Shown: in pieces, positions 18,379 to 62,076 of the stretch
Layout: each line of letters opens with the position of its first letter
Numbering within the stretch: the first letter of the stretch is position 1
From: Halobacillus rhizosphaerae
Lineage (GTDB): Bacteria > Bacillota > Bacilli > Bacillales > Halobacillaceae
Assembly: GCF_046719735.1 (NCBI RefSeq)
Contig: NZ_JAUTWQ010000003.1
Coordinates: forward strand, 30,246 to 94,245
Direction of reading: 5' to 3'
DNA length: 64,000 nt
Made by a program: the position numbers and the translations under genes
Notes under the pieces: generated by a model
The model's input: only the letters and a program-made list of their open reading frames with translations
Told to the model about the DNA's origin: nothing
Database searches by the model: none

Positions 18379-18402
18379 TTATTATTTATTGCATTTGTTT
18401 GA
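18379..18402 (-). promoter_or_regulatory. SPBRE-like promoter element (variant ATTATTTATTGCATTTG)
   Basis: Shares the family core. Lies upstream of an ORF-free interval ending at the 18213-18275 hairpin. Confidence 0.35.
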
Positions 18403-18793
18403 AATTTAAATTTTTGTCAAAGATATATACACCATTATCCGAGTTCTCATACATTACAGTATGAGGGAAGAACAATTCGGTTAATAACGCATTAAAATTC
18501 GGCATATTAGTAATAGATTCATCAAGGTAAATGTGAGTATATCTTGACCCTTTTCTCACAGGATTATCTTTGATAGATGACATTACAATTTTGCTACCAT
18601 TTTGATATCTAGCAGTGTATCTATGATGTAAGTCAACTGTTTCGTTGCTTAACTTTGAATTTTTCTTTTCTTTCTTCATTAATTCTGTTACTAGGTGCAT
18701 ACTTCTTGACCTACTACCTAAATCAAGATGGTTATGCAACACTAAGATAATTCTATTTTCCATTGTTATCATTCCTTCTGTAAACTCCACCAC
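18386..18793 (-). CDS. hypothetical protein (possibly C-terminal part of a frameshifted gene)
   Basis: 135 aa. Overlaps the upstream ORF by 41 nt in a different frame. Confidence 0.3.
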   Translation of the reverse strand: MVEFTEGMITMENRIILVLHNHLDLGSRSRSMHLVTELMKKEKKNSKLSNETVDLHHRYTARYQNGSKIVMSSIKDNPVRKGSRYTHIYLDESITNMPNFNALLTELFFPHTVMYENSDNGVYIFDKNLNFKQMQ

Positions 18794-19103
18794 GTATATC
18801 CTTACCTTGTGATTTCAGCCAGTTAAGCATTTCAAGACCGATTGAATCATCTACTAGTAAAGGTTGATTGTTATTTAAAACTTCTTTGGTGAATGTTTGT
18901 GCTAATCGAAGTACAGTAACTTCTGTATATAAAAGCATATCTGCTCTTGTTTGATTACCTACTACAATTGCAAAGTTGTTTTTTAAAGCAATATCAGTTA
19001 AGACAGGAAGGTAGTCATTAACACTAACTTCATTGCCAATTTCAACTAGTTTTCCTTTATTCAATTTTCTTCTTAGAAAAAAATTTTTCATAATAGAAAT
19101 CAC
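18753..19103 (-). CDS. hypothetical protein (possibly N-terminal part of a frameshifted gene; weak phosphoesterase-like GNxx/HNH motifs)
   Basis: 116 aa. Its start overlaps the ligase stop by 4 nt. Confidence 0.3.
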   Translation of the reverse strand: MISIMKNFFLRRKLNKGKLVEIGNEVSVNDYLPVLTDIALKNNFAIVVGNQTRADMLLYTEVTVLRLAQTFTKEVLNNNQPLLVDDSIGLEMLNWLKSQGKDIRGGVYRRNDNNGK

Positions 19104-20407
19104 TCTCCGTAATTTATATCCTCCACAGTCTTGTCGTGACGGATACCTTTAAATGTCGGGAATCGCATAGATGGTAGACCTGTCTTTTCATCTTTACTTT
19201 CTTCAAAGAATTGCACTTCAATGATCTTTCCAACAATAAGGTCTGGGCATTCTATATAATTATGACGATCCTCTAGTGTAAAACCAGAACCCACACCAAC
19301 TAAATTACCTTTGTATTCAACATTTACACGACTCAATAATCCCTCAAATTGACCGTCAATAGCTCTCTCTGCACTCATTACAAGCAAGTCTGCTGTTTTA
19401 AACTCTTTAACTTTTTGAAGATCAACAGTTCTTTTTGCTTGATATAGCCCATCTGCTGAATTAATCATCAGACCTTCAAAACCTTCTGCTGTGACTTTAG
19501 ACATAATGTTAGGGATAATACTTTTATCTTTTCCTTCATATAGAACAGGAAGAGTATAAATATATTCACTTTCTTCTATGATTTGCTCATCAAGTAAGTC
19601 AAGCTGTTTTCTTCGTTTCTCATATGTATTTTTTGAAGTTCCATCTTTAAATTCTGTCAAAGGTAGCATGTCAAACATGTAAAACTCTAAGTTTTTCTTC
19701 TCACCATCTTTACGAACTACCTTTTGTGTAGCTGTAAAAAGTTCTTTGGAAGGAAGATTATCCTCATTCTTTAATAAGATTTCACCATCAAACACCCATC
19801 CATCGGGTAATGCTTCAAAGTGTTCTTCTAAATCAACCATTCCTTCAATCTGCTGACCACTTCTAGTGAAAAATTTTGTTTGACCATCTTCTTTAACTGC
19901 TAGGCAACGGTTTCCATCAAGTTTAAGAGTAACGAAAAATTTGCCTGTAATTTTCTTTTCTTTCTTAGCAAAGGACTCAGCCAACATTACTGAGAAACTT
20001 GGAACAGTGTCTTTACCATATACTTTATTTACAGTCTTACTTGTGATGCCAACTTTTAGTGATTTAGTGACGAATTTTCTTACAAATGTTTTTAGTTCAT
20101 CTGAATCTAAGGAGTTGATAAAGTGTTGGATATTGGCAATATCAAAATCTCTACCACTATTACGTGTTGAAAGATAAGTAATTAATGAATCAAGAGAACC
20201 AATGTCAATTAAAACTTCTTGATTTTTTACTTTTTTATTTATTTTCTTTGTAGAAAGTCCTGTAACTACATATGGATTTAGAAGAAACACAAGGGCTTTG
20301 CGAAAATCCTCATTGCCCTCATGCTGTTTTAAAATTTCTTCTTTTGCCGTTTTAGCTCCATTAGTTTCTAATTGGTGAAAAATTTCATAAACTTCTTGTA
20401 TATTCAT
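19100..20407 (-). CDS. ATP-dependent DNA ligase
   Basis: Motif I KLDGNR (lysine adenylation site), nucleotidyltransferase and OB domains, 435 aa. Confidence 0.85.
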   Translation of the reverse strand: MNIQEVYEIFHQLETNGAKTAKEEILKQHEGNEDFRKALVFLLNPYVVTGLSTKKINKKVKNQEVLIDIGSLDSLITYLSTRNSGRDFDIANIQHFINSLDSDELKTFVRKFVTKSLKVGITSKTVNKVYGKDTVPSFSVMLAESFAKKEKKITGKFFVTLKLDGNRCLAVKEDGQTKFFTRSGQQIEGMVDLEEHFEALPDGWVFDGEILLKNEDNLPSKELFTATQKVVRKDGEKKNLEFYMFDMLPLTEFKDGTSKNTYEKRRKQLDLLDEQIIEESEYIYTLPVLYEGKDKSIIPNIMSKVTAEGFEGLMINSADGLYQAKRTVDLQKVKEFKTADLLVMSAERAIDGQFEGLLSRVNVEYKGNLVGVGSGFTLEDRHNYIECPDLIVGKIIEVQFFEESKDEKTGLPSMRFPTFKGIRHDKTVEDINYGE

Positions 20408-20426
20408 ATTACACCTCTAATTAATA

Positions 20427-20440
20427 ATTATTTGTTGCGG
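20427..20440 (-). promoter_or_regulatory. SPBRE-like element upstream of DNA ligase
   Basis: Minus strand reads CCGCAACAAATAAT, 18 nt before RBS AGAGGTG. Confidence 0.5.
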
Positions 20441-21036
20441 TTTCGAGTGGATTTAATAAGTTCATCTGCCAAACCATATTCAATAGCTTCATGGGGAGTT
20501 AAATACCAGTCAATTTGATATTTAATAGCTTCTTCCATTTTTTCTTTTGGTAGGTTTGTGACACTGAGAAGAAATTCATTCATTCTCGTTCTTAGTGAAA
20601 TTGCTTGTTTTAGATATTCTTCTACTCCTTGAGTTTTTGCATGGATACCAAAAGCAGTATCATGAAACATAAATGTTGCCATTGGATGTGCAAACCTTCT
20701 ATGACCAGAAGCAAAGATATAAAATCCCATGCTCATTGCTTTACCATAGATGTATGTATAAACAGGAGTTTCACTAGAATCAATAACCCCTGCTAAAGCA
20801 ATACCATCGTGACAAACACCACCATAAGAGTTGACAATTACTTTGATTGGTTCTCTTACATAATTTTCGTCTTCTTTTTCTTTTTCGCTGTCAATACGAT
20901 TGATTTCAATAATTTCCATCAGAATGTTTTCAACAGATTGGGCATCTACATCTTTATTTAAGATAAATTCCCTTTTCTTTCTGTTATTTTTATTATTGTT
21001 ATTGTTCTCATTATTGTTTTTGTTTTGTTCTGACAT
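20428..21036 (-). CDS. ClpP-like serine protease with N-terminal Asn/Lys-rich extension
   Basis: ClpP catalytic Ser context GKAMSMGFYI, His in HRRFAHP and Asp downstream. Confidence 0.7.
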   Translation of the reverse strand: MSEQNKNNNENNNNNKNNRKKREFILNKDVDAQSVENILMEIIEINRIDSEKEKEDENYVREPIKVIVNSYGGVCHDGIALAGVIDSSETPVYTYIYGKAMSMGFYIFASGHRRFAHPMATFMFHDTAFGIHAKTQGVEEYLKQAISLRTRMNEFLLSVTNLPKEKMEEAIKYQIDWYLTPHEAIEYGLADELIKSTRNRNK

Positions 21037-21062: not shown

Positions 21063-22088
21063 TTAATGTGCTAAAGTGTCTGCTTCTCTTAAAAACTCAA
21101 GACGTTTGAAATGATCTTCCCCAACATGATTTTTTAATTTGTCTGGATTTGCTTTATCATCCAGTAAAAACATATGAAACTGAATAAGCAATGAAACTGT
21201 ATGTATAAATGATTCATCAAAACCTAACCGTTTAAGTATCCTTATAGCAATTTGTGAACCAACATGTTCATGTCCAATGAAATTCGCATATCTTACTTCT
21301 TCACCTTTTCGATTAATAAAGCTTTTACAAAGATGTTTTCCGAGATCATGAAGAAGTGCAGTCCATAGCATGATTTCTCTTTCTCTTTCGTTTTCTGCAT
21401 TATAGTTGTCTAAAACATGTTTATAAACATAATATGTGTGTCTACTTACTGAGAATGAATGGTATTTAGAATCTTGTGCTAAATCCATCACCTTACTAAA
21501 TTCATTGAAATATGTAGAAAGAAAATTCATGAGGTCATATCCTTCTCTACCAAGTGAAACACCTAGTCTAACTGCATCAGAAAACTGTTTCGGAAACTCA
21601 TTATTCAAAGTTTCATCATCATATTCGAATATAATCTTATTCCAACCTTCACTATAAATAGGTATTTGGAGATTCTTATACATTCTTTCTATTGCACCAA
21701 ATGGTACAACACGTTCCCTTTGAAGATTTTGAGATTGTGCAATTTCTAGATTAGAAGTCAAATATACAATAGTCTTGAATGAGTTTTTTGGCAGTTGTCG
21801 AAGCAAGTGCGAACGTTTTTTACGACTAATATTGGTAGCATCATAAATTACGAACTTTCCTTTCTTCATTGCTTCTAATGTTCGCTTTCTCATTTCTTCA
21901 AACACAACTGCATTATTTTCTTGACTTGATTCATCACCAAATAATTCAAGTCTTATAGCATCAGATGAAAGATATGCTATTTCCACATCTACATCTTCAA
22001 CTTTAGTGGCTGAAATTAAAGCTTCTGCAAATGTAGACTTGCCACTCCCGGCAAGCCCACAAAGCATAAGAAATTTTGGTTGATCCAT
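21063..22088 (-). CDS. bifunctional polynucleotide 5'-kinase (N-terminal, T4 Pnk-like) fused to C-terminal HD phosphohydrolase: RNA/DNA end-healing enzyme
   Basis: Walker A GLAGSGKST and IYDATNISRKKR match the T4 Pnk kinase domain. The C-terminal half has the HD motif LLHDLGKH plus downstream His residues. Confidence 0.7.
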   Translation of the reverse strand: MDQPKFLMLCGLAGSGKSTFAEALISATKVEDVDVEIAYLSSDAIRLELFGDESSQENNAVVFEEMRKRTLEAMKKGKFVIYDATNISRKKRSHLLRQLPKNSFKTIVYLTSNLEIAQSQNLQRERVVPFGAIERMYKNLQIPIYSEGWNKIIFEYDDETLNNEFPKQFSDAVRLGVSLGREGYDLMNFLSTYFNEFSKVMDLAQDSKYHSFSVSRHTYYVYKHVLDNYNAENEREREIMLWTALLHDLGKHLCKSFINRKGEEVRYANFIGHEHVGSQIAIRILKRLGFDESFIHTVSLLIQFHMFLLDDKANPDKLKNHVGEDHFKRLEFLREADTLAH

Positions 22089-22106: not shown

Positions 22107-22126
22107 ATTATTTGTTGCACTTATAG
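22107..22126 (-). promoter_or_regulatory. SPBRE-like element upstream of Pnk-HD gene
   Basis: Minus strand reads CTATAAGTGCAACAAATAAT. Confidence 0.5.
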
Positions 22127-23380
22127 TGATTCAGATTCTTCCATGTCTAATACATCATCAGCTTTTATAATTGACTCTAAAACTTTAAAGTGGAAGTTTT
22201 TATGCTTGTAAGCTGTGAATTTTTCCTTGTTGTCAACTCTAACAATAATTCCTTCACGAATATGTGTTTTTCCAATTGGATCAGCACCATCTTCATACTT
22301 TTTAACTCTGGTCATTAAGTCTTCAACAGTGGTAAATTCGAATTTATCAAACTCTGGGCAATATTTAACTCCCATTTGTTCACAGCGCATTTTAACTAAG
22401 TGCCAAGGGTATTCTACTGTATGACCATCTTCATTTGTCATAGTCATACGATAGACATAAATATCACTCTTACCATTCTCACAACCATATGTATATTGAG
22501 TCTTTTCACCAAATTGCTTAATGAAGCTTTTGTCTTTGGTTTTACTATTGTTGCATTCTGGCATAATGAATTGATTTTCACCAGTGTATCCTACAACCTC
22601 ATAGTATACGCTTTCACCTTTTTGAAGTTTGTTATCGAAGAAATCATGCCATTGTTGTCGGAAACCATTTCCACCATAATATCCACCTTCAAAATTTTTT
22701 AATGTAACATTCCTTGTTCCAGTTACATGTTCCCAATCTTTGTGGTTGATATTGAATCTCTTCAATAGTTTATTTAAGAAAGATGTTTTCTTTTTAATTG
22801 CATAAGATGTTCGTTGAGAAGTACCATGCATTTTTAAAGTAATGTAACATAAGTCACCTTCTTTAAAACTATTGGTATTGTATGCTAATTGTGCTGTATC
22901 AAGGTGTTTTTCAAAGTAAGGAAATGATTCTTTATCTTTAACTTTCTTCTTAGGTTGATTCGGCATATCTTTCTTTTCTTTGCCTTTAGGGATGTATTTT
23001 TCACAGATGACAGTTCCATTTAATACAGTGACAGAATCTCCTTCTTTGAGTGAAGAAGTTTTGCAGAATCGAGATAAACTTTCTATTGGCATAAATAAAC
23101 CATCAGATTTTTCACCTCTAAGTTTAATTGTCGTAATGTGACGTTTGTTTGGATCAAGATAACCACCAGAATTACTTCCACTAATACGAAGCAAGTTGTT
23201 TTCCTTTGCGTATTCTAAACCTAACTTTCCATCTGTAGGGAAATAAACACCTAAGTCTCCAACTTTTACATCTAAACCAACAATTACATCATTACCAAAT
23301 AAAGTTGCAACTTGTAACCTGTCTGCATTTGAATGTTTTCTTAATTCTTTGACACTAGTTATGTATGCTTGATAAGCCAA
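22121..23380 (-). CDS. ATP-dependent RNA ligase with N-terminal tRNA-binding OB domain (DraRnl/Rnl5-like)
   Basis: N-terminal KHSNADRLQVATL...GDLGVYFPTDG resembles the Trbp111/CsaA tRNA-binding fold. Ligase motif I is KMHGTS; motif IV is EGIIVR; motif V is K-x-K. TTG start with RBS AAGGGGA. Confidence 0.6.
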   Translation of the reverse strand: MAYQAYITSVKELRKHSNADRLQVATLFGNDVIVGLDVKVGDLGVYFPTDGKLGLEYAKENNLLRISGSNSGGYLDPNKRHITTIKLRGEKSDGLFMPIESLSRFCKTSSLKEGDSVTVLNGTVICEKYIPKGKEKKDMPNQPKKKVKDKESFPYFEKHLDTAQLAYNTNSFKEGDLCYITLKMHGTSQRTSYAIKKKTSFLNKLLKRFNINHKDWEHVTGTRNVTLKNFEGGYYGGNGFRQQWHDFFDNKLQKGESVYYEVVGYTGENQFIMPECNNSKTKDKSFIKQFGEKTQYTYGCENGKSDIYVYRMTMTNEDGHTVEYPWHLVKMRCEQMGVKYCPEFDKFEFTTVEDLMTRVKKYEDGADPIGKTHIREGIIVRVDNKEKFTAYKHKNFHFKVLESIIKADDVLDMEESESL

Positions 23381-23401: not shown

Positions 23402-23430
23402 ATTTTACAATTATTTGTTGTATCTGTCAA
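23402..23430 (-). promoter_or_regulatory. SPBRE-like promoter TTGACA-N17-TAAAAT upstream of RNA ligase
   Basis: Minus strand reads TTGACAGATACAACAAATAATTGTAAAAT. Confidence 0.6.
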
Positions 23431-26126: not shown

Positions 26127-26145
26127 AAAGATAACTCCTTTATAA

Positions 26146-26166
26146 TTATTTGTTGTACTTAACGGT
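26146..26166 (-). promoter_or_regulatory. SPBRE-like element upstream of guanylate kinase
   Basis: Minus strand reads CCGTTAAGTACAACAAATAAT. Confidence 0.5.
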
Positions 26167-26446: not shown

Positions 26447-26469
26447 ACATTTCATCCTTTCTAAATGTA

Positions 26470-26498
26470 GATTAACATTATTTGTTGCACTTGTCAAT
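26470..26498 (-). promoter_or_regulatory. SPBRE-like promoter TTGACA-N17-TAATCT
   Basis: Minus strand reads TTGACAAGTGCAACAAATAATGTTAATCT. Confidence 0.55.
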
Positions 26499-27258: not shown

Positions 27259-27324
27259 GTTATGTGTGATCTCCTTAAGTTCTAATTGAAAAGGTGGAAT
27301 GAATCCACCTTTATTAACGTATTT

Positions 27325-27353
27325 ATTATACCATTATTTGTTGCTCTTGTCTA
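27325..27353 (-). promoter_or_regulatory. SPBRE-like promoter TAGACA-N17-TATAAT upstream of dUTPase
   Basis: Minus strand reads TAGACAAGAGCAACAAATAATGGTATAAT. Confidence 0.6.
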
Positions 27354-31146: not shown

Positions 31147-31234
31147 CTGTAAACTCTCCTAATTTAAGTTATTATTCATGTCATAAAATATAGAAGACAC
31201 TATATGTTGTGTCTTCTATCATGACATACTACTA

Positions 31235-31263
31235 ATTATAGCATTATATGTTGCACTTGTCAA
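31235..31263 (-). promoter_or_regulatory. SPBRE-like promoter TTGACA-N17-TATAAT upstream of nrdH
   Basis: Minus strand reads TTGACAAGTGCAACATATAATGCTATAAT. Confidence 0.65.
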
Positions 31264-32433: not shown

Positions 32434-32495
32434 ATTATTTGTTACACCTGTTAGGGTGTAAATTAACTATACTATTATTTGTTACACTTGTAAAG
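32434..32495 (-). promoter_or_regulatory. two tandem SPBRE-like elements upstream of SPFH gene (TTTACA-N17-TATAGT and TAACAG-GTGTAACAAATAAT)
   Basis: Seen in sequence. Confidence 0.55.
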
Positions 32496-36953: not shown

Positions 36954-36978
36954 TTATTCACTCCCTTTCTATAAATTA

Positions 36979-37007
36979 TTTTATAATTATTTGTTACATT
37001 TGTCAAG
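36979..37007 (-). promoter_or_regulatory. SPBRE-like promoter TTGACA-N17-TAAAAT upstream of topoisomerase B gene
   Basis: Minus strand reads TTGACAAATGTAACAAATAATTATAAAAT. Confidence 0.6.
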
Positions 37008-38817: not shown

Positions 38818-38846
38818 TTAAATCTCTCCTTGTATGTTTTGAATAA

Positions 38847-39218
38847 TTATCTAATTATTTTTTGCGCTTGTGCATTGCCGGAAATATCGTCACAGTTAAT
38901 ATTTCTTTCTGCTTTAACATCTCCATCAATATCATCACAGTTCACGTTATTACCTGCTGTTACATTGCCATTAATGTCATCACAATTAACATTGTTTTTG
39001 GCTTCAACATTTCCAGTGACGTTTCCTTTAATATAGATTGATTCTTCACTCATAATGCTATCTACATTGCAAATCACAGTAATTTCGGTCTTTTTATTAT
39101 CAAGATCATCAACAGCTACACCATCTACAAATACAGTATCATTTGTTATAGAAATATTGTTACCAATGTATGTCTTATTGTTAATGCTTACCTGTCCTTT
39201 GTTTCCGAAAAATTTCAA
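38847..39218 (-). CDS. protein with three 15-aa tandem repeats (NVNCDDIxGNVxAxN; beta-helix/bactofilin-like)
   Basis: 45-bp DNA tandem repeats at ~38880-39015. Confidence 0.4.
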   Translation of the reverse strand: MKFFGNKGQVSINNKTYIGNNISITNDTVFVDGVAVDDLDNKKTEITVICNVDSIMSEESIYIKGNVTGNVEAKNNVNCDDINGNVTAGNNVNCDDIDGDVKAERNINCDDISGNAQAQKIIR

Positions 39219-40233: not shown

Positions 40234-40262
40234 AGTATATGATTATTTGTTGTATTTGTCAA
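40234..40262 (-). promoter_or_regulatory. SPBRE-like promoter TTGACA-N17-TATACT
   Basis: Minus strand reads TTGACAAATACAACAAATAATCATATACT. Confidence 0.6.
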
Positions 40263-42962: not shown

Positions 42963-43598
42963 TTATTCATCATCTTTACTAGCAATGGCATCCTCAATAC
43001 AAACCATTAGAATTGCATCATATAAAGGAATGTTACTTGTATCTTTCACTTCCAAATCATAAGAATTTGTTAGTGCAAAATTCTTGCTAACCTTGTAATC
43101 AACATTTCCCTTATTGTCCATGAAATTATTTTTCTTCATTACAGAGAAATTAATTTGGTCACTTACTCCGATCTGTTTCTGATTCTTGTCAAAGAAATGA
43201 AAGTAGTAACCGATTGAAGTAAATTTAGTGGCAGTCTTTTCACCTATGAATCCTAATGTCTTACCTTTTTTATCTTGAATAACTGCTGACCTGCTCAATC
43301 TACCAAATCTTTTGATCTCTTGCTCTTGAATGATTATGTTGCCATCAGTATCTTTCATGGTAAATTTATCACCAAACATTTTAATTAGCTCACCTTCGAC
43401 TGTGGCAACTTTTTTACCATCCACTTCAATAACATATTCTTTAGATAGAGAAAATGGTTGTTCATTTACAGTGATTGTCTTGGCATTGTTTAAAGTTTCT
43501 AGAGACTCTTCTACACTAGGTTTATCCTGTGGTGTTGGAGTAGTGCAACCTGCAAGCAGAAGGACAGACATTAACAATAAAGTAATTATTTGTTTCAC
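42963..43598 (-). CDS. putative lipoprotein
   Basis: Signal peptide with lipobox LLAGC. Confidence 0.5.
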   Translation of the reverse strand: MKQIITLLLMSVLLLAGCTTPTPQDKPSVEESLETLNNAKTITVNEQPFSLSKEYVIEVDGKKVATVEGELIKMFGDKFTMKDTDGNIIIQEQEIKRFGRLSRSAVIQDKKGKTLGFIGEKTATKFTSIGYYFHFFDKNQKQIGVSDQINFSVMKKNNFMDNKGNVDYKVSKNFALTNSYDLEVKDTSNIPLYDAILMVCIEDAIASKDDE

Positions 43599-46245: not shown

Positions 46246-46285
46246 AATTTCATCCTCTCTATATTGGTTAAAAGTCGCATTTTAT

Positions 46286-47431: not shown

Positions 47432-47458
47432 TATATAATTATTTATTGCATTTATAAA
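47432..47458 (-). promoter_or_regulatory. SPBRE-like promoter variant TTATAA-N16-TATAAA upstream of Dam methyltransferase
   Basis: Minus strand reads TTATAAATGCAATAAATAATTATATAAA. Confidence 0.45.
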
Positions 47459-47470
47459 ACTCGCATTTTA

Positions 47471-48212: not shown

Positions 48213-48244
48213 GCCTAAACCTCCTGTATGTATCGTAATTTTAT

Positions 48245-48285
48245 TATATAATAATTTGTTGCATTTGTAAAGTGCAACAATAATT
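48245..48285 (-). promoter_or_regulatory. SPBRE-like promoter TTTACA-N17-TATAAT embedded in a palindrome TTGTTGCA-N9-TGCAACAA
   Basis: Minus strand reads AATTATTGTTGCACTTTACAAATGCAACAAATTATTATATAAT. Confidence 0.6.
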
Positions 48286-55388: not shown

Positions 55389-55811
55389 CTAAACAGCATA
55401 ATTAATTTTTGCTTTTGGCAATTTTAAAGCCCATCTATATAGTTTAAGATTAATCTGTACCAGTTCTTCAAATCCTTCTATGCCAGTTAAATTTCTATTA
55501 AAATTATCTATATAAAATGTAGTTTCAGATCGAAAGTGAAATCCTTCTGGGCAGGACTTAGGTGGAACTTCAAAGTATAGATATGTACCAATCATTCCTT
55601 GGTTTAAGTGACCACTGCAACAATATTTAGTCGTATATCCTTTCTTATTCAATTCAATAATTGTTGGAAGGATTAATTCGTCAACTTCAACTACACTTCC
55701 ATTACATTTAGGAGAAGGACAATAAGATACTACATAACCTTGGTTTATAACTTGTAGCTGATATTCTTCAAATTCTCCATAACATTTAGTACACATGTGA
55801 TGCATTGGCAT
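55389..55811 (-). CDS. hypothetical Cys-rich protein
   Basis: 140 aa with C-x-x-C, CPSPKC and CCSGH motifs. Confidence 0.3.
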   Translation of the reverse strand: MPMHHMCTKCYGEFEEYQLQVINQGYVVSYCPSPKCNGSVVEVDELILPTIIELNKKGYTTKYCCSGHLNQGMIGTYLYFEVPPKSCPEGFHFRSETTFYIDNFNRNLTGIEGFEELVQINLKLYRWALKLPKAKINYAV

Positions 55812-55821: not shown

Positions 55822-55848
55822 TATGTGATTATTTATTGCACTTATAGT
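55822..55848 (-). promoter_or_regulatory. SPBRE-like element variant with TATAAA -10
   Basis: Minus strand reads CTATAAGTGCAATAAATAATCACATATAAA. Confidence 0.45.
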
Positions 55849-56105
55849 TCCCGGCTAAATTCATCCTGCAAAAGACTACTAAGATCAAAGTTTGATACCA
55901 GATTACCTTCAATAGTCTCAATTACAACATTCTCTGAATCATTCAACATGTGTGTCACGAAGTTAGCACTAATAAAATCTCCAAATGTTAGTTCATGACG
56001 GTCTTTCTTTTTGTAATAAATTCCACCAGATACCTCTTTAAAATAAGCATTTGACATTGCTAATACCTTTAAATTCATTGTGTGAGTTTCGTATGTATAT
56101 AACAT
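55842..56105 (-). CDS. hypothetical protein
   Basis: 87 aa. Confidence 0.25.
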   Translation of the reverse strand: MLYTYETHTMNLKVLAMSNAYFKEVSGGIYYKKKDRHELTFGDFISANFVTHMLNDSENVVIETIEGNLVSNFDLSSLLQDEFSREL

Positions 56106-56144: not shown

Positions 56145-56173
56145 ATATTATCATTATTTGTTGTATCTGTCAA
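56145..56173 (-). promoter_or_regulatory. SPBRE-like promoter TTGACA-N17-TAATAT, divergent from plus-strand gene 56237..56695
   Basis: Minus strand reads TTGACAGATACAACAAATAATGATAATAT. Confidence 0.6.
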
Positions 56174-56236: not shown

Positions 56237-56695
56237 TTGTCGTTTAATGAGAGAGAAGCCCTACAAACAATGTTATCGTTTGCCAATGACCAGATGAAAG
56301 AAGCTAAAGAAATGTATTTTGAAGTGCTTACTAAAATTAGAGAAGTAGATGAGCGTGATTTATATAATGAAGATGACAATTCCAGTAATGAAGATTTAAA
56401 AGAACTGAAAGATGAAAATAAGAAGTTAAGGCAAGAAATTGAAAAGTTAAAGAAGGATAAACCAAAGAATAAGGTTCAATATGATATGAATGAAGTAGCT
56501 GATCATGTGCGAACCTTCATTGAAACACATGATGAAGATGATGTATCCTCTAAAGAAATTAGAGATTATTTAGCAGAACTTGATTTTACTTGGGCTAATT
56601 TTAGCATTGCAATGGGACAAATTATGAATCATGATAAAGGAATTGTAAAAGCAGGAAGAGGACTTTATGCTGTCAAAGGTGAATCAGAAGGGTAA
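56237..56695 (+). CDS. plus-strand coiled-coil protein with C-terminal winged-helix-like segment (candidate regulator); start TTG 56237 preferred over GTG 56228
   Basis: Only sizeable plus-strand gene in the prophage. It is divergent from the promoter element at 56151-56173. RBS AGGAGTG. Confidence 0.4.
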   Translation: MSFNEREALQTMLSFANDQMKEAKEMYFEVLTKIREVDERDLYNEDDNSSNEDLKELKDENKKLRQEIEKLKKDKPKNKVQYDMNEVADHVRTFIETHDEDDVSSKEIRDYLAELDFTWANFSIAMGQIMNHDKGIVKAGRGLYAVKGESEG

Positions 56696-57447: not shown

Positions 57448-57451
57448 TATT

Positions 57452-57904
57452 TCATCCTCCTATTTCATCCATAGCTTTATTTGCTAACTGATCTGCTAAC
57501 TCATTTCCACTTTCCCCAGAATGTCCTTTTACTTTCGACCACTCTACACTTTCTTGATTGTCAGAAAGTAGGAGTAATCTTTGCCAAAGTGATTCATTCT
57601 CAACAGGTTTACCATCAGATTTCTTCCAGTTTTTCTTAACCCACTTCTCAACCCATGAAGTCATTCCATTACACACATAAGCACTATCTACACGCATTTC
57701 AATTGGGATGTTTTTTGTTTTAATGGCTTCTAATGCTTTGATACAAGCTGTGAGTTCCATTCGATTATTCGTGGTGTTTTGCTCTCCACCAAATAATTCT
57801 TTTGTTTTGCCTTTATATTCTAAGACAGCACCCCAACCACCAATATTTTCTGCATGTTGATTCCCACGACAACCACCATCACAATATATAATTATTTTTT
57901 GCAA
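57452..57904 (-). CDS. ribonuclease HI
   Basis: YCDGGCRGN, TNNRMEL and HSGESGNELADQLA motifs. Confidence 0.8.
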   Translation of the reverse strand: MQKIIIYCDGGCRGNQHAENIGGWGAVLEYKGKTKELFGGEQNTTNNRMELTACIKALEAIKTKNIPIEMRVDSAYVCNGMTSWVEKWVKKNWKKSDGKPVENESLWQRLLLLSDNQESVEWSKVKGHSGESGNELADQLANKAMDEIGG

Positions 57905-58173
57905 TTGTCCAAAACCGCAGTTCCAGTTGATTTCTTTGTAATTGAAGTAACTTGTATGCCAAGTTGATTAATTCTCAAATATTGAACTTTGTCTTTTAGA
58001 AATTCTATAACTTCATGAAGTTGTTCTCTATGACAAAATGCATATCTTGCACTTACGTTACCATCTACTACATTCCCAAAGAATACTACATGATCTGGTT
58101 CAACATGGTAGTTTTTACGCTTGTAATCTCTTAAATGATTATTTAATTCTATTCTCAAATTTTCTATAGTCAT
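57892..58173 (-). CDS. hypothetical protein
   Basis: 93 aa. Confidence 0.25.
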   Translation of the reverse strand: MTIENLRIELNNHLRDYKRKNYHVEPDHVVFFGNVVDGNVSARYAFCHREQLHEVIEFLKDKVQYLRINQLGIQVTSITKKSTGTAVLDNCKK

Positions 58174-58728: not shown

Positions 58729-60405
58729 TTAAATCAAAGCATAATCTTGAAGAACAACCTGTGGAATAACAACCTTTTTCTTTGTTTTAAAATTAAACCA
58801 CTGATTGAGTTTTAATTCTCCAACTGCTTCTAAGTCATCAAAAGGTGCTAGATCAGAAGCATATTCTTCATCAACTCTAAACCTAATTAATTCTAAGTTA
58901 TTAAATGTAGTTATTTTAACTGTCTCTCTGGTTTCTCCTAAAACTGCCGTATCATTTACTCGTATTCCAGTTACTTTAACTATAATTTTAGGGAATCCAC
59001 TACCACAAACAAGATTAAATTGTTGAATTGCTTTCATATATTCATTTATTTCTGAAACATCTAACTCTAAATCATAAAGGGCAAACGGTTCTTTCTCGGT
59101 CAGTGTAGGCATTAGACGATCAATGTAAGTTTTAAGATTTTCAATATGTTCTTCTGCAAGAACAAATCCACCTGCTCCTTTATGACCGATAACTTCAATA
59201 TCATTTTCAAATCCTTTAAGAAAGTCTAAGAAGTTGAAATTGTTGTAGCTTCTAAAACTACCACTCAAATAGCCTTTATGTAATCGACCTACGATAGCAG
59301 GTCTTCTATAATTATCTGTAAGCTGTTGTGCAACTAAGCCATTAAATCCTTTGGATGACTTATCATCCATAACAATAAGCACTTTTTCATCTTCATTGAT
59401 GGCATTTGAATATTGCTCAAAGATTTCCTTCTGTCTTGCTTTTCTGGTTTTATTTAACTTATCCATTTTCAATCGTAATTTTTTACAGATTTTATCATCA
59501 TCTTCAAGAAGGATATCTATTGCTAATTTAATTTCTCCCATTCTCGCAACTCCATTTATTAGAGGTGCAATGGTAAATCCAATAGCAGAACAATCAACAT
59601 TATAAAGATCAACTTTACCGCCTTTTAGTATCCTTACAAGACCTGTATTCGTTATGTTTCTTAAACCATGCATGATGAGATAACGGTTTTCAAGTACATC
59701 TACTCTCATCATATCTGCATACATCCCAACTGCAACTAAATCAATAAATTGCCAAACATCTACTTCGTCTAAAGTATCCTCTATGACTTGTAATACTTTG
59801 AATACAACTCCTGCACCAGAAAGAAATTTATTAGGATATAAACAATCTTCCTGCTGTGGATTAACCATAATACAATAAGGATTTTCTTTTTCAATAGCAT
59901 GGTGGTCTAGAATGACAATATCTGTTCCTGCTTTGATAATCTTCTTACAGGTTTCGGGATCATTTGTAGAAGAGTCTATTAAGATTAAAAGGTCTGCATC
60001 TTCAATTTTTTCTCTATTGCTAATACTTCTATTCAATCTTTCCTCTTCAATGTCTTCTGTGATCAATATTTGTTCTGTAATTCCATGACCGTCATTTCTT
60101 TCACCATAAATAAAGTCAACATTTTCAGTATAGTTAAAAAGATACCTCATCATTATTGTACTTGATGTAAGACCATCAGCATCACAGTCGTATGAAATCA
60201 CAATATTTTCTTTGTTCATGATTGCTTTAATAATTCGATTACTTGCTTCTTCGATATTTTTTAATAAGTAGGGGTCATGAAGTTCTTCTGATGTAGGTTT
60301 AAGAAATCTTTCTGTATTCTCAACCCCTCTTATCTTAGCTATCTGATCTACAGGAGAATCACTACTATTTGGCTTCTCTTTCGCCTTCCTCTGAATCCAT
60401 TTCAT
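58729..60405 (-). CDS. RecJ-like DHH family single-strand DNA exonuclease
   Basis: DHH motifs YDCDADG, LILIDSS, ILDHH and DHHA1 GHKGAGGF. Confidence 0.8.
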   Translation of the reverse strand: MKWIQRKAKEKPNSSDSPVDQIAKIRGVENTERFLKPTSEELHDPYLLKNIEEASNRIIKAIMNKENIVISYDCDADGLTSSTIMMRYLFNYTENVDFIYGERNDGHGITEQILITEDIEEERLNRSISNREKIEDADLLILIDSSTNDPETCKKIIKAGTDIVILDHHAIEKENPYCIMVNPQQEDCLYPNKFLSGAGVVFKVLQVIEDTLDEVDVWQFIDLVAVGMYADMMRVDVLENRYLIMHGLRNITNTGLVRILKGGKVDLYNVDCSAIGFTIAPLINGVARMGEIKLAIDILLEDDDKICKKLRLKMDKLNKTRKARQKEIFEQYSNAINEDEKVLIVMDDKSSKGFNGLVAQQLTDNYRRPAIVGRLHKGYLSGSFRSYNNFNFLDFLKGFENDIEVIGHKGAGGFVLAEEHIENLKTYIDRLMPTLTEKEPFALYDLELDVSEINEYMKAIQQFNLVCGSGFPKIIVKVTGIRVNDTAVLGETRETVKITTFNNLELIRFRVDEEYASDLAPFDDLEAVGELKLNQWFNFKTKKKVVIPQVVLQDYALI

Positions 60406-60739
60406 ATCCTAAACTTGCTCCCTCTGATTCAAGGTGGAAATCTTCATTGGAAATTTGCATATTCAACTCGCCCATTTCTTGATATCCTTTAACAGCATCC
60501 ATCATGGTTTCCATCCTTTTAAGACTATCAAAATACTGGTCAAAACTAACTTCAACAATATCATTTTCTAATTTTTGGTCAGAAGAATATTCTCTTACAA
60601 ATTCCATAATCTCTGTCATTTTTTCAATAGAATAACCCTTTTCAAGTAGTTGATTTGTTAGATTTTGGTGATGACCACTGACTCTTAAAAATAACCCCGA
60701 AGCTGTTAGTTGATTGGCAACCTGTGCAAAATTTTCCAT
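60365..60739 (-). CDS. hypothetical acidic protein
   Basis: 124 aa. Confidence 0.25.
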   Translation of the reverse strand: MENFAQVANQLTASGLFLRVSGHHQNLTNQLLEKGYSIEKMTEIMEFVREYSSDQKLENDIVEVSFDQYFDSLKRMETMMDAVKGYQEMGELNMQISNEDFHLESEGASLGYEMDSEEGEREAK

Positions 60740-60754: not shown

Positions 60755-60781
60755 TTAAATAATTATTTGTTGTTCTTGTAA
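60755..60781 (-). promoter_or_regulatory. SPBRE-like element (TACAAG-AACAACAAATAAT)
   Basis: Lies upstream of the ORF at 60365..60739. Confidence 0.45.
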
Positions 60782-60861
60782 TAATAAGATATGGAAACAT
60801 TCTCTTATTGTTTGGGCATTAGTAGAAAATGGTTTCAAGCCCAAACTTTTCTTTTTTGTTT

Positions 60862-60890
60862 CTGTAATGTAATCTTACTATTATTTGTTG
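60862..60890 (-). promoter_or_regulatory. SPBRE-like promoter TTGACA-N17-TAAGAT
   Basis: Minus strand reads TTGACAAGCACAACAAATAATAGTAAGAT. A ~100-nt leader with a TTTGGGC/GCCCAAA hairpin follows. Confidence 0.55.
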
Positions 60891-60934
60891 TGCTTGTCAA
60901 TGCTTTTCCAAACAAAAACACGAATAAGTGTTCG

Positions 60935-62020
60935 TTATTTTTCGACATTAAATTCGATTTCTTCTATTGCTTCAAGCATTTGTTTCCACACATCAAATCC
61001 TTTATCAATAGGAGAGTCTTTATGATTGAGTAAATCATTTCGGTCAATCATTTTATACACCTTTCTGTTTGTAAACAACTGTCCAGATTCATCTATTTCT
61101 TTTTCCTTTAATCCTTTGTCGTAGCAGAGAATTATTTCAATATCTAAACCAAGTTGTTTTATTGTATGGACTTGCTCTTCCGATATTTTAGATGCACCTA
61201 TGGCAAGAGTATTATAGACACCTAGATCAAACATTTTCATACAGGATTTTTCACCTTCGAATATAAATACCTTTTTCTCCATTAGAATATAAGGAAGTGC
61301 GAAGTGAAAATTAAACCATTCATAACCATTATTACAACGGTGAAGATAAATGTATTTCTTTTCTAAATCATCTTTGTCATGCATGATCCTTCCTTTAACA
61401 CCTACTAATTTTCCAAAACGATTGCGAATAGGTACGGTTATTCGCTTAGTATCTAAGTCAAATCCAATACCGTACATTATTTGTGTTTCTCTGGATATAC
61501 CCTCTTTCACCCAATCATCAAATGGGAGTGGTTGATCCCAATAGAAATACTCATTTAATACTGTCTCTGGGAGAATAGGGTTAGGTTTAATTTCTTTTCT
61601 TCTTTTTTTGTTATTGGTAAATTGTCTTAGGCAAGCTGTATAATCTTTAACTGCCATAGTACCTTTTTTACCTTTTAAATATTGAGTCCATCCAAACAAT
61701 TCACAAATGAAAGTCTTGGCTTTTTGTAGATTTTGTTGAAGTTCTGCACCCCTATGATCAAAATGAATATAATTTACCAGATTAAAAATATCACCCTCAA
61801 AATCTGCTCTATTTCTAATACTGCAAGACATAAATTCATTCATCTTTACTTGAACTGCTCTTTTATTGGTGCTGTAAAACCTTTCTGGCAACTGTGCTGT
61901 AATTAAATGACCACCCTGTTCAGACTTCACATAATCACAGGAGATAGCTTCGAGAAGGTCTTCTACTTTGTCTTCATTTACTAATTTTTCTTTTATTTTC
62001 TTTAAATCAGACAACCTCAA
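60935..62020 (-). CDS. DNA primase (TOPRIM domain)
   Basis: TOPRIM FIFEGEKS and downstream acidic motif. TTG start with RBS TAAGGAGAGG. Confidence 0.65.
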   Translation of the reverse strand: MRLSDLKKIKEKLVNEDKVEDLLEAISCDYVKSEQGGHLITAQLPERFYSTNKRAVQVKMNEFMSCSIRNRADFEGDIFNLVNYIHFDHRGAELQQNLQKAKTFICELFGWTQYLKGKKGTMAVKDYTACLRQFTNNKKRRKEIKPNPILPETVLNEYFYWDQPLPFDDWVKEGISRETQIMYGIGFDLDTKRITVPIRNRFGKLVGVKGRIMHDKDDLEKKYIYLHRCNNGYEWFNFHFALPYILMEKKVFIFEGEKSCMKMFDLGVYNTLAIGASKISEEQVHTIKQLGLDIEIILCYDKGLKEKEIDESGQLFTNRKVYKMIDRNDLLNHKDSPIDKGFDVWKQMLEAIEEIEFNVEK

Positions 62021-62053
62021 CCTCTCCTTATGTGATTATATGTTGCACTTTTA

Positions 62054-62076
62054 TTATCTATTACCTTTGTCATTTG
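62054..62076 (-). promoter_or_regulatory. SPBRE-like element upstream of primase gene
   Basis: Minus strand reads TAATAAAAGTGCAACATATAATC. Confidence 0.45.

What the first reader, a model, noticed from the sequence alone, without database searches (positions are those of the whole stretch)
18379..62076. Family of 18 or more conserved promoter-embedded elements (SPBRE-like): GTGCAACAAATAAT at a fixed position within sigmaA-type promoter spacers
In minus-strand reading, the 14-bp core (G/A)TGCAACAAATAAT recurs immediately after a -35-like hexamer (mostly TTGACA) and 3-5 bp before a -10-like hexamer (TATAAT, TAAAAT or TAATAT). It recurs upstream of most operons from the ligase to the primase. 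Plus-strand sites are 20427, 22107, 23411, 26146, 26477, 27331, 31241, 32434, 32473, 36985, 40241, 47438, 48251, 55828, 56151, 60761, 60868, 62054 and the variant at 18379. One copy (48251-48285) sits inside a perfect palindrome TTGTTGCA-N9-TGCAACAA, which suggests dimeric protein binding. A conserved spacer sequence is not needed for sigmaA recognition, so this is most likely a shared operator for a phage master repressor or activator. SPbeta has an analogous repeated element (SPBRE) reported to be bound by its repressor; this is from memory. Alternatively it could be a recognition element for a phage-specific transcription factor.
Basis: partly seen in the sequence, partly recalled or inferred. 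Interest (0 to 1): 0.7.

Follow-up and report, generated by a model that had tools for sequence, protein, structure and literature searches.

The report
Repeated prophage repressor-binding sites in promoters
A 14-base sequence repeated about 21 times between the early genes of a large Halobacillus prophage is most likely the docking site of the prophage's MrpR-type master repressor, that is, a diverged relative of the known SPBRE/MrpR switch of Bacillus phage SPbeta and not a new kind of element.

Summary
The motif family is real. RTGCAACAAATAAT occurs 19 times at one mismatch or fewer against 0.23 expected, 18 of them on the minus strand. About 20 of 23 matrix hits lie in the 11% of the prophage that is non-coding or at gene boundaries. 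Only 11-12 copies sit in sigmaA-type promoters, in the register TTGACA-N1-motif-N2-TATAAT. Nine have no usable -35 or -10. Eight of those nine lie 14-22 nt before a start codon, directly before the ribosome-binding site.

The window is a Halobacillus rhizosphaerae prophage related to Tsamsa/Kenyattavirus-like siphoviruses. It shares its replication-gene order with SPbeta. An MrpR-family protein (26% identical to SPbeta MrpR, E=2.6e-25 to PDB 8A0A, nucleophile Tyr replaced by Phe) is encoded on the same contig, ten genes beyond the window's right end.

SPbeta's SPBRE, which MrpR binds in published ChAP-seq, shows the same two site classes and the same promoter register, but a different sequence. 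Each MrpR-encoding relative I examined carries its own variant, for example TGATAC in FADO where this prophage has TGCAAC. Orthologous sites follow each genome's own variant.

The best reading is an MrpR-type operator set. It is a new member of a known kind. Binding is untested, and the role of the promoter-less copies is inferred.

The parts
23402..23430 (-). Class 1 copy. Promoter TTGACA-g-ATACAACAAATAAT-tg-TAAAAT, motif at 23410-23423, upstream of the RNA-ligase-like gene 22121-23380.
   Evidence: Pfam
26469..26497 (-). Class 1 copy. TTGACA-a-GTGCAACAAATAAT-gt-TAATCT, motif at 26477-26490, upstream of gene 26159-26446.
27325..27353 (-). Class 1 copy. TAGACA-a-GAGCAACAAATAAT-gg-TATAAT, motif at 27333-27346. 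The leader carries a 9-bp hairpin followed by a U-run, before gene 26536-27258.
31235..31263 (-). Class 1 copy. TTGACA-a-GTGCAACATATAAT-gc-TATAAT, motif at 31243-31256, upstream of the glutaredoxin / nrdI-like / nrdE / nrdF-like ribonucleotide reductase operon. The leader carries a 20-bp hairpin.
   Evidence: Pfam
32466..32494 (-). Class 1 copy. TTTACA-a-GTGTAACAAATAAT-ag-TATAGT, motif at 32474-32487, upstream of the SPFH/Band 7 gene 31589-32413.
32434..32447 (-). Class 2 copy GTGTAACAAATAAT, 40 bp downstream of the 32474 copy and 20 nt before the TTG start of 31589-32413. The two form a tandem operator pair.
36978..37006 (-). Class 1 copy. TTGACA-a-ATGTAACAAATAAT-ta-TAAAAT, motif at 36986-36999, upstream of the gyrB/gyrA-like topoisomerase genes.
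38846..38874 (-). Class 1 copy with a weak -35. TGCACA-a-GCGCAAAAAATAAT-ta-GATAAT, motif at 38854-38867.
40234..40262 (-). Class 1 copy. TTGACA-a-ATACAACAAATAAT-ca-TATACT, motif at 40242-40255.
48243..48284 (-). Class 1 copy. TTTACA-a-ATGCAACAAATTAT-ta-TATAAT, motif at 48251-48264. An inverted near-complete second copy lies at 48272-48284 (GTGCAACAATAAT on the + strand), separated by the 7 nt that hold most of the -35. The 13-7-14 layout resembles a recombinase core site.
56145..56173 (-). Class 1 copy. TTGACA-g-ATACAACAAATAAT-ga-TAATAT, motif at 56153-56166. It is divergent from the Rok-like gene 56237-56695 (+).
60872..60900 (-). Class 1 copy. TTGACA-a-GCACAACAAATAAT-ag-TAAGAT, motif at 60880-60893. 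It is followed by a structured leader of about 100 nt. The arrangement is conserved in vB_BcoS-136 and L025.
60762..60775 (-). Class 2 copy GAACAACAAATAAT, 22 nt before the ATG of the small gene 60365-60739 that precedes RecJ. The orthologous site is present in FADO, Tsamsa, vB_BcoS-136 and L025, each carrying its own phage's 5' half.
62035..62048 (-). Class 2 copy GTGCAACATATAAT at the helicase-primase junction, 14 nt before the TTG start of the primase gene. At the same junction relative L027 has a full promoter, TTGACT-t-ATGCAACATATAAT-gg-TATACT.
55828..55841 (-). Class 2 copy GTGCAATAAATAAT, directly after the stop codon of 55842-56105 and 16 nt before the ATG of 55389-55811.
47438..47451 (-). 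Class 2 copy ATGCAATAAATAAT, 17 nt before the ATG of the D12-class adenine methyltransferase gene 46548-47420.
26145..26158 (-). Class 2 copy GTACAACAAATAAT, directly after the stop codon of 26159-26446 and 18 nt before the ATG of the guanylate kinase gene 25563-26126.
22107..22120 (-). Class 2 copy GTGCAACAAATAAT, directly after the stop codon of 22121-23380 and 18 nt before the ATG of the kinase/HD-phosphatase gene 21063-22088.
20427..20440 (-). Class 2 copy CCGCAACAAATAAT, overlapping the stop codon of the ClpP-like gene 20428-21036 and 19 nt before the ATG of the ATP-dependent DNA ligase gene 19100-20407.
18381..18394 (-). Terminal copy ATGCAATAAATAAT at the 3' end of the early gene array. 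It has no promoter hexamers and no gene immediately downstream.
43585..43598 (-). Probable extra copy acaa-GTGAAACAAATAAT, whose GTG is the start codon of a lipoprotein gene (MKQIITLLLMSVLLLAGC...).
57883..57911 (-). Doubtful copy. TGGACA-a-TTGCAAAAAATAAT-ta-TATATT has the lowest matrix score and lies inside the overlap between gene 57892-58173 and the start of the RNase H gene.

Best explanation
The 14-mer, with its flanks (consensus ACAA-RTGCAACAAATAAT-nATA), is the operator of the prophage's own MrpR-family master repressor. That protein is GenBank MFQ3543524.1, encoded ten genes upstream of the helicase, just beyond the right end of the window.

In 11-12 copies the operator fills the 17-nt spacer of near-consensus sigmaA early promoters, so a bound repressor would keep host RNA polymerase off them in the lysogen. 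In eight further copies the operator has no promoter around it and sits between a stop codon and the next ribosome-binding site. There it would act as an extra binding site, either blocking read-through transcription or helping cooperative occupancy of the roughly 45-kb early region. Each copy is asymmetric and all point the same way. This fits one monomer of a protein with a tyrosine-recombinase fold clamping one arm-type site.

Shown here: the copies, their register, their non-coding location, the presence and position of the MrpR-family gene, and the lineage-specific variants in related phages. Taken from the literature: MrpR binds SPBRE and represses promoters that carry it in SPbeta. Inferred: that this MrpR homologue binds this 14-mer, and what the promoter-less copies do.
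For: Copy number, strand bias and non-coding enrichment are far beyond chance. With an unbiased promoter definition (at most 1 mismatch per hexamer, 17-nt spacer), 8 of 11 minus-strand promoter-like sites in the prophage carry the motif in one identical register, and none on the plus strand or in the host DNA does.

The window is from Halobacillus rhizosphaerae, since its helicase is 100% identical to P0001. An MrpR-family protein, P0217, with Pfam domains PF22822 and PF22823, lies on the same 263,854-bp contig. Protein accession numbers rise from left to right across the window, which places that gene ten genes to the right of the helicase. P0217 matches the MrpR crystal structure 8A0A at E=2.6e-25. 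It aligns full-length with YopR at 26% identity, and in that pairwise alignment SPbeta's Tyr304 position aligns with Phe328, so it should not be an active recombinase.

All four relatives fetched around the helicase show the gene order MrpR, x, x, YorF, YorG, YorM, YorR, YorH, helicase, primase, RecJ.

In SPbeta, MrpR binds SPBRE (ChAP-seq, EMSA, ITC, lacZ fusions; PMC10516654). SPBRE copies have the same two classes and the same promoter register. The correlation between the two spacer matrices peaks at zero offset, r=0.48.

Each MrpR-encoding phage has its own homogeneous variant. FADO has RTGATAYAAATAAT 13 times, in both classes. Tsamsa has AGCACAAAAATTAATGA. Staphylococcus SPbeta-like and Geobacillus E3 have GAAATAAAATATAA 11-14 times. 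FADO and SPbeta both infect B. subtilis yet differ in this sequence, so the spacer is not dictated by the host polymerase.

Orthologous promoter-less sites keep the element while following each genome's own variant. At the helicase-primase junction the window has lost both hexamers but kept the 14-mer that sits in a full promoter in L027.
Against: There is no binding or expression data for this phage. The MrpR gene lies outside the window, and I placed it only through contig length and accession order.

The SPBRE sequence itself is absent: the 16-mer gives 6 matches against 3.3 expected, none at the sites. The most conserved SPBRE block (AATATGTATA) has no counterpart here.

The 3' half, AAATAAT, is shared by the early promoters of all Tsamsa-like relatives, where it abuts an extended -10 TG. 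Part of the conservation could therefore be a property of the promoters themselves.

In SPbeta, MrpR also shifted DNA without an SPBRE at higher protein excess, and the authors suspect additional specificity factors.

No experiment anywhere explains the promoter-less copies.
Confidence: 0.75

Rival explanations
1. The conserved spacer is only a shared 'strong early promoter' consensus. It was inherited by duplication and kept because it improves recognition by host sigmaA RNA polymerase (an AT-rich spacer or -16 region), with no dedicated repressor involved.
For: The 3' half, AAATAAT, followed by an extended -10 (TG) is common to the early promoters of all Tsamsa-like relatives. The hexamers are near consensus and the spacer is always 17 nt.
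Against: Nine copies keep the full 14-mer without a usable -35 or -10. In the eight next to a gene start, a transcript started there would begin within or after the ribosome-binding site. The 5' half differs between phages of the same host: FADO has TGATAC and SPbeta has ATACAA, both in B. subtilis. The window's promoters lack the TG. Orthologous sites track each genome's own variant.
Confidence: 0.1
2. The motif is bound by a different factor. Candidates are a phage activator that replaces -35 recognition (as the T4 MotA box centred near -30 does, from my own knowledge), the Rok-like winged-helix protein encoded at 56237-56695, or a host regulator.
For: The motif occupies roughly -30 to -16, and nine copies lack a -35. 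A Rok-like DNA-binding gene is the only clear opposite-strand gene in the array.
Against: At the eight promoter-less copies that adjoin a gene start, a start site placed by the -10 register would fall 0-7 nt before the start codon, beyond the Shine-Dalgarno sequence. From my own knowledge, Rok prefers AACTA/TACTA-type AT-rich DNA, and that is absent from the motif. The matrix found no hit in the 15 kb of host DNA. The experimentally established binder of the equivalent element in SPbeta is MrpR.
Confidence: 0.1
3. The element works mainly as RNA or as a recombination substrate. It could be an intercistronic processing or translation-enhancing sequence. Alternatively it could be a repeated boundary cassette that promotes shuffling of gene modules, like the PeSL cassettes of T4-type phages (from my own knowledge).
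For: All copies have one orientation, the same as the genes. Eight lie at a near-fixed distance before a ribosome-binding site. Copies sit at gene boundaries in a region rich in small variable ORFs. Three class 1 promoters are followed by stable hairpins.
Against: The exact register with the -35 and -10 hexamers in 11-12 copies has no RNA-level explanation, because those copies lie upstream of their own start site. The window gives no evidence of recombination junctions. This reading would not explain why every phage carrying such elements that I examined also encodes an MrpR homologue.
Confidence: 0.05

Closest known systems
SPBRE (SPbeta repeated element) and its binder MrpR/YopR in Bacillus phage SPbeta (Lazarevic 1999 as cited in PMC4191935; Kohm et al., PMC10516654)
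   Same: Both are repeated asymmetric elements in the intergenic regions of the early gene clusters. Both fill the 17-nt spacer of sigmaA-like promoters, from the ACA of the -35 to the TATA of the -10. Both have additional copies directly before ribosome-binding sites (yopM, yopV and yonX-2 in SPbeta). Both share positions in register (ACAARTRCAA..AATA....TATAAT). In both, an MrpR-family protein is encoded upstream of the replication module YorF...YorI-YorJ-YorK.
   Different: The sequences differ: RTGCAACAAATAAT here against ACAAAWAATATGTATA in SPbeta, and the SPBRE 16-mer is not enriched here. The repressor is only 26% identical and has Phe where SPbeta MrpR has Tyr304. The host genus (Halobacillus) and phage clade (Tsamsa/Kenyattavirus-like, helicase 65-71% identical) differ. 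The copy density is higher, about 21 in 46 kb against about 11 in all of SPbeta. Binding is not tested.
Early promoters of Tsamsa-like and FADO-like large Bacillus siphoviruses (vB_BcoS-136, Tsamsa, FADO, and metagenomic relatives L025-L027)
   Same: They have the same promoter layout, TTGACA-N17-TATAAT, with a conserved spacer ending in AAATAAT. They have the same promoter-less copies at orthologous junctions (before YorF, and before the small gene preceding RecJ). They have the same position for the MrpR homologue.
   Different: The 5' half of the element is specific to each lineage: TGCAAC here, TGATAC in FADO, GCACAA in Tsamsa, and loosely conserved in vB_BcoS-136. The relatives carry an extended -10 TG that the window's promoters lack. 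In the paper library I searched, SPBRE is mentioned only in SPbeta papers, and the Tsamsa genome paper mentions no motif or repressor.
Tyrosine-recombinase core sites (loxP, dif, attP core; from my own knowledge)
   Same: MrpR has a tyrosine-recombinase fold. One monomer of such a protein covers an arm of about 11-14 bp, which matches the size of this element. The site at 48251-48284 has two inverted arms around a 7-bp spacer.
   Different: All other copies are single arms. The protein lacks the nucleophile tyrosine and most catalytic residues. SPbeta MrpR showed no recombination activity.
PeSL early-promoter/stem-loop cassettes of T4-type phages and T4 MotA boxes (from my own knowledge)
   Same: Both involve many copies of a conserved promoter-associated sequence between small early genes. 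Some promoters here are followed by hairpins. The element lies near -30.
   Different: Here the conserved part is the spacer, not the hexamers plus a hairpin. Promoter-less copies cannot start useful transcripts. I did not look for a MotA/AsiA-type system.

Membership tests
SPBRE/MrpR-type operator set | Many copies of one asymmetric element, confined to intergenic regions of the phage early region and in one orientation. | tested here: met
   There are 23 minus-strand and 2 plus-strand matrix hits. Eighteen are fully non-coding and two straddle gene ends, with 10.9% of the region non-coding (P about 1e-13). The matrix found none in the host DNA.
SPBRE/MrpR-type operator set | The element is embedded between the -35 and -10 of sigmaA-type promoters, as at SPbeta yorE, yorM, yorZ and yosX. 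| tested here: met
   Eleven to twelve copies follow TTGACA-N1-motif-N2-TATAAT. The SPbeta copies follow TAGACA-AATACAAATAATATGTA-TATAAT (PMC4191935).
SPBRE/MrpR-type operator set | Additional copies lie at or after the transcription start, next to the ribosome-binding site, as at the SPbeta yopM and yopV peaks. | tested here: met
   Eight copies lie 14-22 nt before start codons. The SPbeta yopM, yopV and yonX-2 copies are followed directly by AGGAG, and those genes are ChAP-seq targets.
SPBRE/MrpR-type operator set | Sequence match to the SPbeta SPBRE consensus. | tested here: not met
   The SPBRE 16-mer at 3 mismatches or fewer gives 6 matches against 3.3 expected, none at the sites. Only partial in-register similarity exists: spacer matrix r=0.48 at offset 0, and the next best is 0.35. 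The element is therefore an analogue, and probably a homologue, of SPBRE but not SPBRE itself.
SPBRE/MrpR-type operator set | A cognate MrpR-family repressor (MrpR_N_CB plus MrpR_C_cat domains) is encoded by the same prophage. | tested here: met
   P0217 (MFQ3543524.1) carries PF22822 and PF22823 and lies on the same 263,854-bp contig, ten accession numbers after the helicase. This position is syntenic with the relatives. It matches PDB 8A0A at E=2.6e-25. The gene is outside the window, so its placement inside the prophage is inferred from gene order.
SPBRE/MrpR-type operator set | The repressor physically binds the element and represses promoters that carry it. | not testable with these tools
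   This is shown only for SPbeta (PMC10516654). It needs EMSA, ChAP-seq or reporter assays with the Halobacillus protein.
Activator-dependent (MotA-box-like) promoters | A box near -30 replaces the -35, and transcripts start a fixed distance downstream of a -10 and include the gene's ribosome-binding site. | tested here: not met
   Copies without a -35 would place the start 0-7 nt before the start codon, past the Shine-Dalgarno sequence. Copies with the motif also have near-consensus -35 hexamers.
Structured or curated RNA element | A match to a known RNA family. | tested here: not met
   There were no Rfam matches at gathering threshold in the whole window and no tRNA or tmRNA genes.

The most novel reading that the evidence does not exclude
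The promoter-less copies and the lox-like inverted pair at 48251-48284 are not spare operators. They would be the framework of a higher-order silencing complex. In this reading the recombinase-derived repressor occupies about 21 arm-type sites spread every 0.3-8 kb. It blocks read-through at gene junctions and may bring distant sites together, as its recombinase ancestors do. The whole early region of at least 45 kb would then be shut down as one unit rather than promoter by promoter. The lineage-specific 5' half (TGCAAC, TGATAC or GCACAA) would act as an immunity code separating co-infecting relatives.
Probability: 0.2. Interest if true: 0.6.

Novelty: new member of a known kind. Interest (0 to 1): 0.4.

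Why it matters
The SPBRE/MrpR switch has been characterised in one phage, SPbeta. This window suggests that the same logic operates in a distant clade of 160-kb Tsamsa/Kenyattavirus-like siphoviruses and in a Halobacillus prophage. That logic is a catalytically dead, recombinase-fold repressor recognising an asymmetric element built into early-promoter spacers.

Each lineage carries its own operator variant at orthologous sites. This gives a ready-made natural series for working out how the MrpR fold reads DNA, and for predicting immunity groups among these phages. It also suggests that the 'integrase' or 'tyrosine recombinase' labels on the Tsamsa-group proteins are probably wrong.

For genome annotation, the 14-mer marks the early promoters and the repressor-controlled regulon of this prophage. 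None of this is conceptually new, so the value is incremental.

Tried and rejected
Retrieving the rest of the prophage:
- A megablast of 12 kb of the window against the phage collection found nothing.
- Exact look-ups of the helicase, both as the window translation and as P0001, found no contig on record. I could therefore not read the prophage beyond 64000, and placed the MrpR gene through accession order instead.

Searching for the motif elsewhere:
- Scans for TTGACARRYRCAACAAATAAT found only single, apparently unrelated matches: 3 loci in IMG/VR and 17 loci in GTDB representative genomes.
- The Psychrobacillus and Bacillaceae loci among them have no further copies.
- This exact variant therefore appears confined to this lineage in those collections.

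Other checks that gave nothing:
- No homologue of MrpR, AimR, YonO, YopS or YonR lies inside the window (tblastn).
- The generic promoter and terminator scans are not enriched over shuffles in this AT-rich DNA. They are informative only because their top minus-strand hits coincide with motif sites. One of the three scan calls exceeded the size limit.
- Rfam and tRNA searches were empty.
- The palindrome at 48256-48280 is not a convincing terminator: -7.7 kcal/mol, z=-2.0, and no U-run.
- The SPBRE sequence is not printed in the paper's text, so I derived it from the SPbeta genome at the promoters the paper names.

Full report
**Observation.** RTGCAACAAATAAT with one mismatch or fewer occurs 19 times in the window against 0.23 expected, and 18 of the 19 are on the minus strand. 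A position matrix built from 21 sites finds 23 minus-strand and 2 plus-strand hits. First-order Markov simulations of the prophage part give about one hit on both strands. With a simple gene model, 10.9% of the prophage part is non-coding. Eighteen of the 23 hits lie wholly in that fraction and two more straddle a gene end (P about 1e-13). Two are off by 12 and 19 nt (60880 and 62035), and a few copies were missed (38854, 43585, 57891).

**Anatomy.** The copies fall into two classes.

- Class 1 has 11 copies plus one doubtful one. Its layout is TTGACA, one base, the 14-mer, two bases, then a TATAAT-like hexamer, which gives a 17-nt spacer.
- With an unbiased definition (at most 1 mismatch per hexamer, 17-nt spacer), 8 of the 11 minus-strand promoter-like sites in the prophage carry the motif in exactly this register. 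None of the plus-strand or host-DNA sites does.
- Class 2 has nine copies that keep the 14-mer and traces of the flanks (A.AA before, .ATA after) but have no usable -35 or -10.
- Eight of the nine lie 14-22 nt before a start codon, directly before the Shine-Dalgarno sequence. Three abut the upstream gene's stop codon and one overlaps it.
- The ninth (18381) sits at the end of the gene array with no gene just downstream.

A transcript positioned by the promoter register at the eight junction copies would start at or past the ribosome-binding site. These copies therefore cannot be promoters for the adjacent gene.

The palindrome at 48256-48280 is real. It consists of two inverted near-complete copies (13 and 14 nt) around 7 nt, and it is unique in the window.

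**Source and context.** The helicase gene at 62054-63598 is 100% identical to a Halobacillus rhizosphaerae protein on a 263,854-bp contig. G+C falls from about 40% to about 31% near 15-16 kb. A large serine recombinase gene lies at 15481-16989, next to a truncated ABC-transporter gene. This marks the prophage's left end.

From about 18.4 kb to 63.6 kb nearly all genes are on the minus strand. They encode DNA ligase, RNA ligase, ribonucleotide reductase, a type II topoisomerase, RNase H, RecJ, primase, helicase and many small ORFs.

The closest cultured relatives are 160-170-kb siphoviruses: vB_BcoS-136, Tsamsa, FADO and others. Their helicases are 63-71% identical and their RNR about 74-77%. 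Gene order around the helicase matches SPbeta's yorF to yorK module.

**The SPbeta precedent.** The literature states that SPBRE was predicted in 1999 as a repressor site in the yorE, yorM, yorZ and yosX promoters. It also states that MrpR/YopR, a monomeric protein with a tyrosine-recombinase fold and no recombinase activity, binds SPBRE. The evidence is ten ChAP-seq peaks, EMSA, ITC at about 0.24 uM, and five-fold repression of PaimR and PyosX fusions.

I extracted the element from the SPbeta genome at those genes. The consensus is (TAG)ACAAATACAAAWAATATGTATATAAT. Five copies fill a 17-nt promoter spacer. Three (yopM, yopV, yonX-2) are followed directly by AGGAG. These are the same two classes as in the window.

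In the promoter register the two elements share ACAARTRCAA..AATA....TATAAT. The correlation between the spacer matrices is highest at zero offset (r=0.48; the next best is 0.35 at -3). The SPBRE 16-mer itself is not enriched in the window. The element is therefore a diverged counterpart of SPBRE and not SPBRE itself.

**The repressor.** No MrpR homologue lies inside the window. All four relatives fetched around the helicase encode one 6-8 kb upstream of it. Three carry Pfam MrpR_N_CB plus MrpR_C_cat, and vB_BcoS-136 gp109 is 27% identical to YopR at E=2e-29.

A profile search with these proteins recovered P0217, a 343-aa MrpR-family protein of H. rhizosphaerae, on a contig of the same length as the helicase contig. 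Its accession is MFQ3543524.1 and the helicase is MFQ3543514.1. Accessions rise from left to right across the window: recombinase ..429, RNR ..447, Rok-like ..505, RecJ ..511. The repressor gene therefore lies ten genes to the right of the helicase, just beyond the window, in the syntenic position.

P0217 matches the MrpR structure 8A0A at E=2.6e-25. It aligns full-length with YopR at 26% identity. In that pairwise alignment SPbeta's Tyr304 aligns with Phe328, and the Tsamsa-group homologues share the conserved NLKGFLT motif at that place. These proteins therefore look like DNA binders and not recombinases.

**Comparative evidence.** Early promoters of the relatives share the layout and the 3' half of the spacer (AAATAAT, usually followed by an extended -10 TG). 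The 5' half is lineage-specific.

| Phage | Element |
|---|---|
| This prophage | TGCAAC 5' half |
| FADO | RTGATAYAAATAAT, 13 copies in 41 kb, both classes |
| Tsamsa | AGCACAAAAATTAATGA |
| vB_BcoS-136 | looser, ...CAAAAAATAATGA |
| Staphylococcus SPbeta-like, Geobacillus E3 | GAAATAAAATATAA, 11-14 copies, often next to ribosome-binding sites |

FADO and SPbeta infect the same host species yet differ, which argues against a requirement of host RNA polymerase.

Promoter-less copies are conserved at orthologous junctions and follow each genome's own variant. Before the small gene preceding RecJ, the copies read as follows:

- window: GAACAACAAATAAT
- FADO: GTGATACAAATAAT
- Tsamsa: ACATAAAAAATAAT
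- vB_BcoS-136 and L025: ACACAAAAAATAAT

At the helicase-primase junction L027 has a full promoter containing ATGCAACATATAAT. The window keeps GTGCAACATATAAT but has lost both hexamers. So selection acts on the 14-mer independently of promoter function. This pattern of homogeneity within a genome and divergence between genomes is what one expects of sites co-evolving with a trans-acting specificity protein.

**Mechanism.** I conclude, at about 0.75 confidence, that the element is the operator of the prophage's MrpR-type master repressor. Class 1 copies would occlude sigmaA promoters of the early operons. Those operons include ribonucleotide reductase, topoisomerase, RNA ligase, the RecJ operon and many small genes.

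Class 2 copies would be additional occupancy sites at gene junctions. I infer that they act as roadblocks to read-through in this long co-directional array, or that they support cooperative binding. Neither has been shown.

The asymmetry of the sites, their single orientation and their 14-bp size fit one recombinase-fold monomer per site. SPbeta MrpR is monomeric in solution. The 13-7-14 inverted pair at 48251-48284 looks like a recombinase core site and may be a high-affinity or relic arrangement.

**Rivals.**

- A purely promoter-intrinsic consensus (0.1) explains the shared AAATAAT half. It does not explain the promoter-less copies or the host-independent 5' half.
- A different binder (0.1) could be a MotA-like activator, the Rok-like protein at 56237-56695 or a host factor. 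This is not excluded, but it lacks support and conflicts with the geometry of class 2.
- An RNA-level or recombination-cassette role (0.05) fails to explain the exact promoter register.

**Novelty.** The kind is known (SPBRE/MrpR). This is a new, sequence-diverged member in a different phage clade and host genus. In the paper library I searched, SPBRE is discussed only for SPbeta, and the Tsamsa genome paper mentions no motif or repressor. Interest is moderate. The result extends a one-phage paradigm to a broad group and offers a natural series of operator variants, but it would not surprise a specialist.

Noticed in passing
window 56237-56695 (+): This is the only clear opposite-strand gene inside the early array. 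It encodes a 152-aa protein with a Rok winged-helix domain (PF23159, 31.2 bits, above the cut-off) and is named 'Rok-like winged helix domain-containing protein' in UniRef. It is divergent from the class 1 promoter at 56145-56173. It may be a prophage-encoded nucleoid-associated silencer expressed in the lysogen.
   Followed up: partly
window 15028-15480: A host ORF matches only the first 107 of 274 positions of the ABC-transporter transmembrane profile and stops next to the serine recombinase gene (15481-16989). G+C changes here. The prophage appears to be inserted into an ABC-transporter gene, as SPbeta splits spsM. The left attachment site should lie at about 15465-15480.
   Followed up: partly
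window 45410-45423, 46270-46283, 47456-47469 (all minus strand): A second small repeat, AAAATGCGA(C/G)TTTT, has three exact copies, each lying just after a stop codon in a short intergenic gap. The copy at 47456 lies 4 nt upstream of the 47438 motif copy. At 2 mismatches or fewer there are 7 matches against 2.7 expected. Its function is unknown.
   Followed up: partly
window 27259-27320, 31147-31230, 60776-60866 (minus strand): The leaders transcribed from three class 1 promoters contain unusually stable hairpins. One has a 9-bp stem followed by UUUUC (z=-3.3), one has a 20-bp stem (z=-4.6) and one has two stems (z=-3.4). They could stabilise the 5' end, act as attenuators or be small RNAs. 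The roughly 100-nt leader before the RecJ operon is partly conserved in vB_BcoS-136 and L025.
   Followed up: partly
window 17844-18158 (+): A 104-aa ORF matches only the zinc beta-ribbon domain of large serine recombinases (PF13408, E=5.5e-9). It lies next to the intact recombinase gene but on the other strand. It is probably a remnant of a second recombinase gene.
   Followed up: no
window 60365-60739 (-) and the orthologous genes in L025-L027: In relatives, the small gene before RecJ carries a weak-to-clear MazE_antitoxin_C hit (unmarked in L027, weak in L025 and L026). In the window it gives a marginal tblastn match to SPbeta YosL (E=0.078). YosL is reported to be needed for the SPbeta lytic cycle and to act as a MazE-like antitoxin. 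The window gene sits behind both a class 1 and a class 2 copy.
   Followed up: partly
L002 31280-32257 (SPBc2 record NC_001884): The reference SPBc2 record carries Glu at MrpR position 136, where every aligned homologue has Gly. This is the published heat-sensitive c2 allele (G136E), so the RefSeq protein is the mutant form.
   Followed up: yes
L024 178-1179, L028 19998-21023, L029 20001-21014: MrpR homologues in Tsamsa-like phages are annotated 'integrase' or 'site-specific tyrosine recombinase' (FADO's as hypothetical protein). In the pairwise alignment of P0217 with YopR, the position of SPbeta's Tyr304 is Phe, within a motif these proteins share. They are probably lytic-cycle repressors, and the recombinase annotations are likely wrong.
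   Followed up: partly
L031 (Staphylococcus phage SPbeta-like) and L030 (Geobacillus virus E3): A different repeat, (A)GAAATAAAATATAA, occurs 11-14 times per 31-41 kb, nearly all on the coding strand and often just before ribosome-binding sites. It may be the MrpR operator equivalent in these more distant phages.
   Followed up: no
window 33362-33375 (-): A high-scoring copy, ATACAACAAATAAT (matrix score 18.7), lies inside the gyrA-like gene without the usual ACAA flank. It could be a chance match, since about one hit is expected, or an intragenic binding site.
   Followed up: no
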